A stretch of 64,000 nt of DNA, taken from NCBI RefSeq assembly GCF_057098645.1, contig NZ_CM169472.1. One strand, 5' to 3'. A model generated the notes under the pieces. The model was not told the origin of the DNA. It saw only the letters and a program-made list of their open reading frames with translations, and did not search any database. The translations under genes were made by a program, and so were the position numbers. This document shows, in pieces, positions 62,483 through 62,947 of this stretch (positions are counted from its first letter, which is position 1; each line of letters opens with the position of its first letter).

Positions 62483-62947
62483 AAGTGACCTCCGATTATC
62501 TACAGACTGCCATCCTGAATTTACCTTCCCTTAATGAAATAACAATAAAAAACAAACCACGCAAAAACAATAAAACAACACACAAAAAAAACTAAATAAT
62601 AAACAAAAATAATCACCTTATTTTATTATTTTTTGAGGGAGCAATTACTGAACAAAAAACGCTGACTATATACTCAAAACCAAACAACTATTCTGCCAAT
62701 CAGGTATCATGGCAACACACGGAATTACCGTGTTTTTGCCTTCTCTGCCCATACAATACGGGCATATACTTCATTCTCTATTGTAATATTTCTATCCATG
62801 TGCCCCACTCCATTTACCTGTAAATAATATTCAAAATATTTATCACAGAAATCGTTTTTGGCCATGAACTGAGCACACTATAAAGTCCGGAACTGACTCT
62901 TTGTTAAATTACCTTAACGTTACCAGTAACACCTTCATAACAAAACA

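What the first reader, a model, noticed from the sequence alone, without database searches (positions are those of the whole stretch)
62525..62640. Strongly A/C-biased low-complexity tract
About 115 bp made almost entirely of A and C on the + strand (aacaataaaaaacaaaccacgcaaaaacaataaaacaacacacaaaaaaaactaaataataaacaaaaataatc...), with very few G. It lies in the pch-like upstream region. Possible roles are a curved-DNA or H-NS nucleation element, an sRNA, or a leader sponge; none is annotated.
Basis: seen in the sequence. Interest (0 to 1): 0.35.

Follow-up and report, generated by a model that had tools for sequence, protein, structure and literature searches.

The report
Promoter of the pch virulence regulator
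The A/C-rich tract is real, but read on the opposite strand it is the T-rich main promoter of the prophage gene pch (a PerC-family activator of E. coli attaching-and-effacing virulence genes), so it is an ordinary feature and not a new RNA or sponge.

Summary
The core, 62541-62612, is 90% A+C with one G. It is the most A+C-biased stretch in the 64 kb and the second most AT-rich.

All neighbouring genes are on the minus strand. There the tract is T/G-rich DNA just upstream of a PerC-family gene, pch (62168-62482). The 291 nt upstream of pch are identical to EDL933_RS06260. A published Cappable-seq table gives that gene a start site 53 nt before its ATG in all eight conditions. This maps to window 62535.

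That places TATTGT (62547-62542) at -12 to -7 and TTGTTT (62570-62565) at -35 to -30, 17 bp apart. The tract core therefore spans -6 to -77 of the main pch promoter. It includes a T8 run at -49 to -56.

In 82 of 88 related copies the two hexamers and the 17-bp spacing are kept, although the spacer sequence falls into four very different classes. The segment 62553-62645 is where the pchA, pchB and pchC types differ most (67-88% identity against 95-100% in flanks and coding sequence).

The sRNA, leader and sponge readings are not supported. H-NS binding and curvature remain untested, and the computed proxies are weak. The tract is an ordinary promoter in an already used promoter region (PpchA). 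Interest is low.

The parts
62541..62612 (-). Core of the tract. It is A/C-rich on the + strand and T/G-rich on the pch-sense (-) strand. It spans -6 to -77 relative to the main pch start site.
   Evidence: Composition 52A/13C/1G/6T on +. Positions relative to the start site computed.
62535..62535 (-). Main transcription start site (P1) of pch, an A. It gives a 53-nt 5' UTR.
   Evidence: Cappable-seq start site 1271063 for EDL933_RS06260 in all 8 conditions, scores 164-2240. The gene ends at 1271010 on the - strand. The upstream 291 nt are 100% identical to the window.
62542..62547 (-). -10 hexamer TATTGT of P1 (-12 to -7). It lies inside the second copy of the repeat TTTTATTGTT.
   Evidence: Position relative to the mapped start site. 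Kept in 86 of 88 copies, and in 82 of these with a TTGT(T/C)T -35 hexamer 17 bp upstream.
62565..62570 (-). -35 hexamer TTGTTT of P1 (-35 to -30). It lies inside the first copy of TTTTATTGTT.
   Evidence: The 17-bp spacer (62548-62564) is constant in length, but its sequence falls into four divergent classes.
62584..62591 (-). T8 run at -49 to -56, where a UP element would sit. Its length varies between copies.
   Evidence: for position. T8 in 49 copies, T7 in 35 and T6 in 1 of 88.
62605..62633 (.). A/T-only inverted repeat (AAAAATAAT / ATTATTTTT) at -70 to -98. It forms the T-rich end of the flagged range.
   Evidence: pair I6. It is not a significant RNA structure on either strand (z 0.0 and -1.0).
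62518..62545 (-). Minor promoter P2: TTGTTA (62545-62540), 16 bp, TAAATT (62523-62518). Minor start sites at 62510 and 62520.
   Evidence: Cappable-seq start sites 1271038 (2 conditions) and 1271048 (1 condition). Hexamers. The spacing is not constant between alleles.
62483..62535 (-). 53-nt pch 5' UTR with the Shine-Dalgarno sequence GGAGG at 62493-62489.
   Evidence: 97-99% conserved over 62483-62530.
62168..62482 (-). pch coding sequence (PerC family, 104 aa). The protein accession matches RefSeq WP_001303878.1.
62105..62131 (.). Two-way terminator hairpin between pch and the convergent ylcI/ynfO-like gene.
   Evidence: (z -3.6 on both strands).
62646..62947 (-). Almost invariant upstream block that always accompanies pch. 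It holds a 46-aa ORF (62725-62865, phrog_2157) and a hairpin (62711-62741).
   Evidence: Conservation 0.91-1.0. Same 672 genomes as pch. phrog_2157 E = 2.7e-37. Hairpin z -4.1.

Best explanation
The tract is the main sigma-70-type promoter of pch, seen from the non-coding strand. Shown: RNA polymerase starts at 62535 on the minus strand. TATTGT sits at -12 to -7 and TTGTTT at -35 to -30, 17 bp apart, followed by an A/T-rich TATTTC stretch before +1. Each hexamer lies in one copy of the 10-nt direct repeat TTTTATTGTT, and the two copies are 25 bp apart. Inferred: the T-rich DNA from -38 to about -105, including the T8 run at -49 to -56, is the upstream promoter region. It could contact the polymerase alpha subunits in the way a UP element does. 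It could also be a landing site for the A/T-preferring regulators reported for pchA (Lrp, H-NS-type proteins). The strand bias follows from packing T-tracts, TTG and TAT..T motifs on the sense strand. Shown: this segment is the main place where the pchA-, pchB- and pchC-type loci differ. Inferred: it is therefore the likeliest cis-determinant of their different expression.
For: The Cappable-seq tables of EDL933 (PMC10469882) list start site 1271063 for EDL933_RS06260 in all eight conditions, with scores of 164-2240. That gene occupies 1270696-1271010 on the - strand. Its upstream 291 nt are identical to window 62470-62760, so the start site is window 62535 and the hexamers fall exactly at -10 and -35. 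The same promoter was picked out from comparison alone before the start-site data were found. TTGT(T/C)T-17-TATTGT is kept in 82 of 88 copies, while the spacer sequence falls into four unrelated classes. The hexamer blocks are 96-98% conserved against 78% for the spacer. A ~500-bp fragment starting near 62984 and containing the tract was used as the 'native promoter PpchA' in a butyrate sensor. A 78%-identical pch relative on an IncF plasmid keeps a collinear T-rich block in an otherwise unrelated upstream context.
Against: The hexamers are weak (3/6 and 4/6 matches), and the promoter score does not exceed shuffled sequence. Without the start-site data the assignment would be uncertain. The start site comes from one genome-wide data set in another strain, read from a supplementary table. 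pch paralogues share near-identical leaders, so some reads could be mis-assigned between copies. The UP-element role, regulator binding and H-NS binding were not tested. One of 88 copies lacks about 41 nt of the tract, including the -35 hexamer. The papers that dissected the pchA/pchB promoters (Honda 2009, Nakanishi 2006 and 2009, Melson and Kendall 2019) could not be read.
Confidence: 0.8

Rival explanations
1. The tract's main role is as a nucleoid-protein target, that is an H-NS nucleation site or intrinsically curved DNA that silences pch until counter-silenced. This can coexist with the promoter reading.
For: 82% A+T, the second highest in the window. GC falls to 0.23 here. The gene is horizontally acquired and lies on a prophage. 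Composition is conserved while sequence is not, as expected for a composition-reading protein.
Against: No match to the high-affinity H-NS 10-mer within 2 mismatches in the tract. Predicted curvature is only in the top 1.4-8% of positions, with more than ten stronger sites in the window and no ~10.5-bp periodicity. The P1 start site gives strong signals in all eight conditions, including plain LB, so it is not tightly silenced. No locus-level ChIP data could be retrieved.
Confidence: 0.3
2. The tract acts as RNA. It could be a U/G-rich part of a long pch leader from an upstream promoter (for example TTGCCA-17-AATAGT at 62715-62687). It could instead be an A/C-rich, ARN-repeat plus-strand RNA ending at the 62711-62741 hairpin that sponges Hfq or G/U-rich seeds such as GcvB R1.
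For: The distal promoter-like site has the best score. The plus strand has a 5-repeat ARN run, the joint longest in the window. Its predicted pairing with GcvB R1 is -26.3 kcal/mol, in the top ~5%. A terminator-like hairpin with a T-run lies downstream on the plus strand. Prophage anti-sRNAs exist in EHEC.
Against: The dominant start site is downstream of the tract. No start site in EDL933 1271070-1271299 (window 62542-62771), on either strand, appears in the held parts of the tables. There is no Rfam hit and no Hfq-CRAC sRNA peak at the Sakai pchA, pchB or pchC upstream regions. The minus-strand leader fold is no better than shuffles (z +0.37). Identity between alleles is 67%, with 1-nt indels. 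AgvB-type RNAs sit in a different prophage position.
Confidence: 0.05
3. Apart from the two hexamers, the low-complexity sequence has no specific function. It is slippage-prone T-rich filler that drifts quickly.
For: It is a degenerate tandem repeat. There are frequent 1-nt length changes in T runs, and tract length ranges over 115-118 nt with outliers of 77, 121 and 125. It is the least conserved part of the module. One copy lacks about 41 nt.
Against: T-richness (57-72% T, T+G 80-90%) is kept in all four allele classes despite 30-40% sequence divergence. The IncF relative also keeps a T-rich block. The spacer length is held at 17 bp while neighbouring segments gain and lose bases.
Confidence: 0.25

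Closest known systems
The pchA promoter region (PpchA) of EHEC O157:H7
   Same: The sequence is identical to the Sakai pchA and EDL933_RS06260 upstream regions. The region is used as a native promoter fragment. It is reported to respond to LrhA, Lrp/butyrate and NtrC-linked signals.
   Different: No accessible paper describes the tract itself, its repeat structure or its allele-specific variation. The window copy lies in a different, IS-disrupted prophage of a non-Sakai strain.
Sigma-70 promoters with A/T-rich UP elements (for example rrnB P1)
   Same: It has -35 and -10 hexamers 17 bp apart, with an A/T-rich block and a T-run at -38 to -59.
   Different: The -38 to -59 region is T/G-rich (TAGTTTTTTTTGTGTGTTGTTT) and is not a close match to the UP consensus. 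Alpha-subunit contact was not tested.
AgvB/AsxR prophage anti-sRNAs (Tree et al. 2014)
   Same: Both lie on EHEC lambdoid prophages. The plus strand of the tract is C/A-rich, like a GcvB target mimic.
   Different: AgvB lies downstream of the late promoter PR' in Sp10 and Sp17, is 51-60 nt long and has its own terminator and Hfq peak. The tract lies between the lysis genes and cos and has no recorded transcript or Hfq peak.
H-NS-silenced A/T-rich promoters of horizontally acquired virulence regulators (for example LEE1/ler)
   Same: A low-GC island upstream of a horizontally acquired regulator.
   Different: No H-NS motif, only modest predicted curvature, and strong start-site signal in all conditions.

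Membership tests
Sigma-70-type bacterial promoter | An experimentally mapped primary 5' end just downstream | tested here: met
   Cappable-seq start site in all 8 conditions, mapping to 62535 through 100% identical sequence.
Sigma-70-type bacterial promoter | -10 and -35 hexamers at the correct distance from the start site, 16-18 bp apart | tested here: met
   TATTGT at -12 to -7, TTGTTT at -35 to -30, spacer 17. As a pure sequence prediction it is not above shuffles.
Sigma-70-type bacterial promoter | Hexamers and spacing conserved among relatives | tested here: met
   82 of 88 copies keep both hexamers and the 17-bp spacing, across four divergent spacer classes.
Sigma-70-type bacterial promoter | Promoter activity lost on mutating the hexamers | not testable with these tools
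   Needs reporter fusions.
UP element | A/T-rich -38 to -59 region that contacts the alpha C-terminal domain and stimulates transcription | tested here: inconclusive
   The region is 77% A+T with a T8 run. It is not a close consensus match, and no binding data exist.
H-NS nucleation site / curved DNA | High A+T content relative to surroundings | tested here: met
   82% A+T, second highest in the window.
H-NS nucleation site / curved DNA | Match to the high-affinity motif TCGATAAATT | tested here: not met
   No hit within 2 mismatches between 61181 and 62900.
H-NS nucleation site / curved DNA | Strong intrinsic curvature from phased A-tracts | tested here: inconclusive
   Wedge-model curvature in the top 1.4-8% only, with no ~10.5-bp periodicity. 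The parameters were recalled from memory.
H-NS nucleation site / curved DNA | H-NS occupancy in vivo | not testable with these tools
   Locus-level ChIP data were not retrievable.
Hfq-dependent sRNA / anti-sRNA (AgvB type) | A discrete transcript with its own start and terminator | tested here: not met
   No start site recorded at the tract (EDL933 1271070-1271299, window 62542-71) in the held tables. No Rfam match. No EcOnc peak at any Sakai pch locus.
Hfq-dependent sRNA / anti-sRNA (AgvB type) | Conserved seed sequence | tested here: not met
   67-88% identity between alleles, with indels.
Upstream small ORF / hydrophobic peptide (31 aa, 62521-62616, minus strand) | Reading frame kept among relatives, plus a ribosome-binding site | tested here: not met
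   Single-base length changes in 36 of 88 copies. No family match. No SD before the GTG. The start site lies inside the ORF.
PerC/Pch family (the neighbouring gene) | Match to Pfam PF06069 above its cut-off | tested here: met
   149.3 bits against a cut-off of 22.6.

The most novel reading that the evidence does not exclude
The fast-evolving half of the tract (the 17-bp spacer and -36 to -105, including the slippage-prone T7/T8 run) is the cis-element that sets the different strengths and regulator inputs of the otherwise near-identical pchA, pchB and pchC genes. Copy-to-copy variation here would then tune how strongly a given EHEC or EPEC strain switches on its type III secretion island.
Probability: 0.3. 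Interest if true: 0.4.

Novelty: already known. Interest (0 to 1): 0.15.

Why it matters
[quoted passage not shown] This analysis places the main promoter elements inside the tract. It also shows that the pchA, pchB and pchC types, which have almost the same flanks and coding sequence, differ chiefly within this ~90-bp segment. That gives a concrete and testable reason why the paralogues contribute unequally. As a genome feature, however, it is an ordinary A/T-rich promoter in a region already used as PpchA. It is not a new class of element.

Tried and rejected
**AgvB-like anti-sRNA.** The C/A-rich plus strand suggested a GcvB target mimic. Tree et al. place AgvB downstream of PR' in Sp10 and Sp17, and list no Hfq peak at any Sakai pch locus. 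Predicted GcvB R1 pairing is only in the top ~5%.

**Rfam.** Nothing matched at gathering thresholds or at E <= 10.

**Long U-rich leader.** I considered a leader from the distal site TTGCCA-17-AATAGT, or from a sigma-54-like TGGCAG-N5-TTGT at 62685-62698. The sigma-54-like motif is no more frequent than chance (6 found, 4.5 expected). The mapped start site is downstream.

**Curved DNA and H-NS motif.** Both proxies were weak or absent.

**Terminator.** The A/T-only hairpin plus U-run on the minus strand has dG -6.5 and z 0.

**Inverted repeat bracketing the tract.** CCCTT...GAGGG gives plus-strand z -2.4. It shows no compensatory changes between alleles.

**31-aa hydrophobic uORF.** This is a compositional artefact, as shown by the frame-shifting length changes.

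**More distant PerC genes.** A 52% relative, a 42% relative and EDL933_RS05505 have no such tract.

**Literature.** The primary pch promoter papers are not held. Several searches gave nothing on the start site. The Sy et al. dRNA-seq supplement is not held.

**Free phage genomes.** The module is essentially absent from them.

Full report
**Observation.** The full range 62525-62640 is 72% A+C (A 63, C 20, G 6, T 27), and its last ~25 nt are T-rich. The true low-complexity core is 62541-62612: 72 nt with 52 A, 13 C, 1 G and 6 T. The best 80-nt window reaches 0.8875 A+C against a mean of 0.51 (sd 0.065), and the next-best peak in the 64 kb is 0.76. It is also the second most A+T-rich 100-nt stretch in the window, at 82%. 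GC falls to 0.23 here. Tandem Repeats Finder describes it as about three degenerate copies of a 21-25-nt unit.

**Context.** All neighbouring genes lie on the minus strand and form the late region of a lambdoid prophage. In order they are:
- Rz/lysis protein, 62948-63415
- a 46-aa ORF, 62725-62865
- a hairpin
- the tract
- a 104-aa ORF, 62168-62482
- a two-way terminator, 62105-31
- a convergent ylcI/ynfO-like gene
- a lambda-type cos sequence, small terminase, and a large-terminase gene cut by an IS3-family element

The 104-aa ORF is a PerC-family protein (PF06069, 149 bits). It matches the RefSeq protein annotated at this locus in O26 and EDL933. On the strand that matters, the tract is therefore T/G-rich DNA at 59-130 nt upstream of the pch start codon.

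**Distribution.** The tract and its flanks occur in 672 of 5426 complete E. coli genomes, at 1-5 copies each. They always occur with pch and never carry an annotation. The window allele is identical to the Sakai pchA upstream region. The Sakai pchB and pchC upstream regions are two further allele types.

**What it is.** I first compared 88 copies from virus-derived contigs and complete genomes. The intergenic region is 91-100% conserved upstream of 62646 and 91-99% downstream of 62552. The stretch 62553-62645 is the least conserved. Within it, two blocks stand out at 96-98% conservation, both copies of TTTTATTGTT, 25 bp apart. They contain TTGTTT and TATTGT separated by 17 bp. In 82 of 88 copies these hexamers and the 17-bp spacing are kept. 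The spacer sequence, however, falls into four unrelated classes: TTGCGTGGTTTGTTTTT, TTATATAATTAGTTTTT, TTCTGTGATTTATTTTT and TTCTGTGGAGGGGAGAG. Conserved hexamers, fixed spacing and a free spacer are the signature of a sigma-70-type promoter. The predicted start site was near 62535.

**Start-site evidence.** A published start-site map then confirmed this. The Cappable-seq tables for E. coli O157:H7 EDL933 (PMC10469882) list three start sites for locus 6260, a PerC family regulator on the minus strand. Site 1271063 appears in all eight growth conditions with scores of 164-2240. Site 1271038 appears in two conditions and 1271048 in one. EDL933_RS06260 occupies 1270696-1271010. The 291 nt around and upstream of its start codon are 100% identical to window 62470-62760.

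The main start site is therefore window 62535, an A, 53 nt before the ATG. TATTGT (62547-62542) falls at -12 to -7 and TTGTTT (62570-62565) at -35 to -30. The minor site 62510 fits TTGTTA-16-TAAATT. The tract core spans -6 to -77 of the main promoter, and the flagged range spans +10 to -105. A T8 run sits at -49 to -56.

**How it works.**
- Shown: the tract contains the core promoter elements of pch P1, and P1 is active in all eight conditions tested.
- Shown: a ~500-bp fragment beginning near 62984 and containing the tract has been used as the 'native promoter PpchA'.
- Inferred: the T-rich DNA from -38 to about -105 is the upstream promoter region. It could act like a UP element or bind A/T-preferring regulators. 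Reviews report that pchA responds to LrhA, Lrp/butyrate and NtrC-linked signals.
- Inferred: the A/T-rich TATTTC between -10 and +1 fits the reported positive control by ppGpp/DksA. That report is from my memory of Nakanishi et al. 2006 and was not checked.
- Inferred: the strand bias is a by-product of stacking T-tracts, TTG and TAT..T motifs on one strand.

**Allele variation.** Identity between allele types is given by segment below.

| Comparison | 62645-62553 | Upstream block | Coding sequence |
|---|---|---|---|
| pchA-type vs pchB-type | 67% | 98% | ~100% |
| pchA-type vs pchC-type | 88% | 97% | 99% |

T-richness is kept in every type (57-72% T, T+G 80-90%). The T run is T8 in 49 copies, T7 in 35 and T6 in 1. 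One copy lacks about 41 nt. A 78%-identical pch relative on an IncF plasmid keeps a collinear T-rich block in an unrelated context. Its alignment score is 39 against 26-28 for composition-preserving shuffles, and 5-6 of 300 shuffles reach it. More distant PerC genes have no such tract. Composition appears to be under more constraint than sequence. This segment is the obvious candidate for the unequal contributions of the pch paralogues noted in the literature.

**Rivals.**
- RNA readings are poorly supported. There is no Rfam match and no Hfq-bound sRNA at the Sakai pch loci. The held tables list no start site in EDL933 1271070-1271299, window 62542-62771, though those files were cut when stored. 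The minus-strand fold is insignificant. The variability is too high for a seed.
- AgvB, the known prophage anti-sRNA with a C/A-rich seed, lies at a different prophage position.
- For H-NS or curved DNA, only the A+T content is favourable. The 10-mer motif is absent. Predicted curvature is modest and used wedge parameters recalled from memory.
- A neutral 'slippery filler' reading of the distal half cannot be excluded.

**Comparison with known systems and verdict.** This is the pchA-type promoter, a sigma-70-type promoter with an A/T-rich upstream region. It lies in a locus already used as PpchA, and its start site is already present in a public data set. Two observations were absent from the papers I could read, and the primary pch promoter papers were not among them. 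One is that both hexamers lie inside a repeated TTTTATTGTT. The other is that the promoter segment is the hypervariable part of an otherwise near-invariant module. These are modest refinements, so interest is low.

Noticed in passing
window 62725-62865 (-): An unannotated 46-aa ORF between Rz and the tract matches phrog_2157 over its full length (E = 2.7e-37). It occurs in exactly the same 672 E. coli genomes as pch, so the mobile unit appears to be small ORF + promoter + pch. It is absent from free phage genomes apart from one EHEC-derived fragment.
   Followed up: partly
window 62711-62741: A strong hairpin (plus-strand dG -18.3, z -4.1) followed by TTTTT on the plus strand only. The stop codon of the 46-aa ORF lies in its loop. 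It looks like a terminator for plus-strand (antisense) transcription, but no such transcript is on record. The pchB- and pchC-type alleles each change one side of the same base pair without compensation.
   Followed up: partly
window 62884-62898 and 62919-62930 (-): Two palindromes lie in the invariant block about 350-395 bp upstream of the pch start site: AGTCAGTTCCGGACT (T-N11-A type) and GTTACTGGTAAC. They are possible LysR-type (LrhA) boxes, and from memory Honda et al. 2009 placed the LrhA-dependent region roughly here.
   Followed up: no
window 62685-62698 (-): A sigma-54-like TGGCAG-N5-TTGT lies in the invariant block. It is notable because pchA expression depends on NtrC phosphorylation in the literature. 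The partial motif is no more frequent than chance (6 found, 4.5 expected), it lacks the -12 GC, and no start site is recorded there.
   Followed up: partly
window 59612-60035: An IS3-family element (OrfA 59683-60009, ALIL frameshift pseudoknot 59612-59728, 120 bits) interrupts the large terminase gene, whose ORF ends at 60035. The prophage carrying this pch copy is therefore probably defective.
   Followed up: no
window 305-391 (-) and 8727-8816 (+): The core-genome sRNA genes dsrA (102.5 bits) and rseX (99 bits) are present at the start of the window, which places the prophage near that chromosomal region.
   Followed up: no
window ~61620-61660: A lambda-type cos sequence (…cgcgaggtcgccgcccc…) lies between the ylcI-like gene and small terminase. 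The pch module therefore occupies the Rz-to-cos slot that bor occupies in lambda. This was recognised by eye from memory of lambda cos.
   Followed up: no
L096 (NZ_CP008957.1 1125966-1126285): A second PerC-family gene of EDL933 (RS05505, next to an IbrB-like gene) also has a start site in all eight Cappable-seq conditions, 50 nt before its ATG. It has an ordinary TATTAT -10 and no T/G-rich tract.
   Followed up: partly
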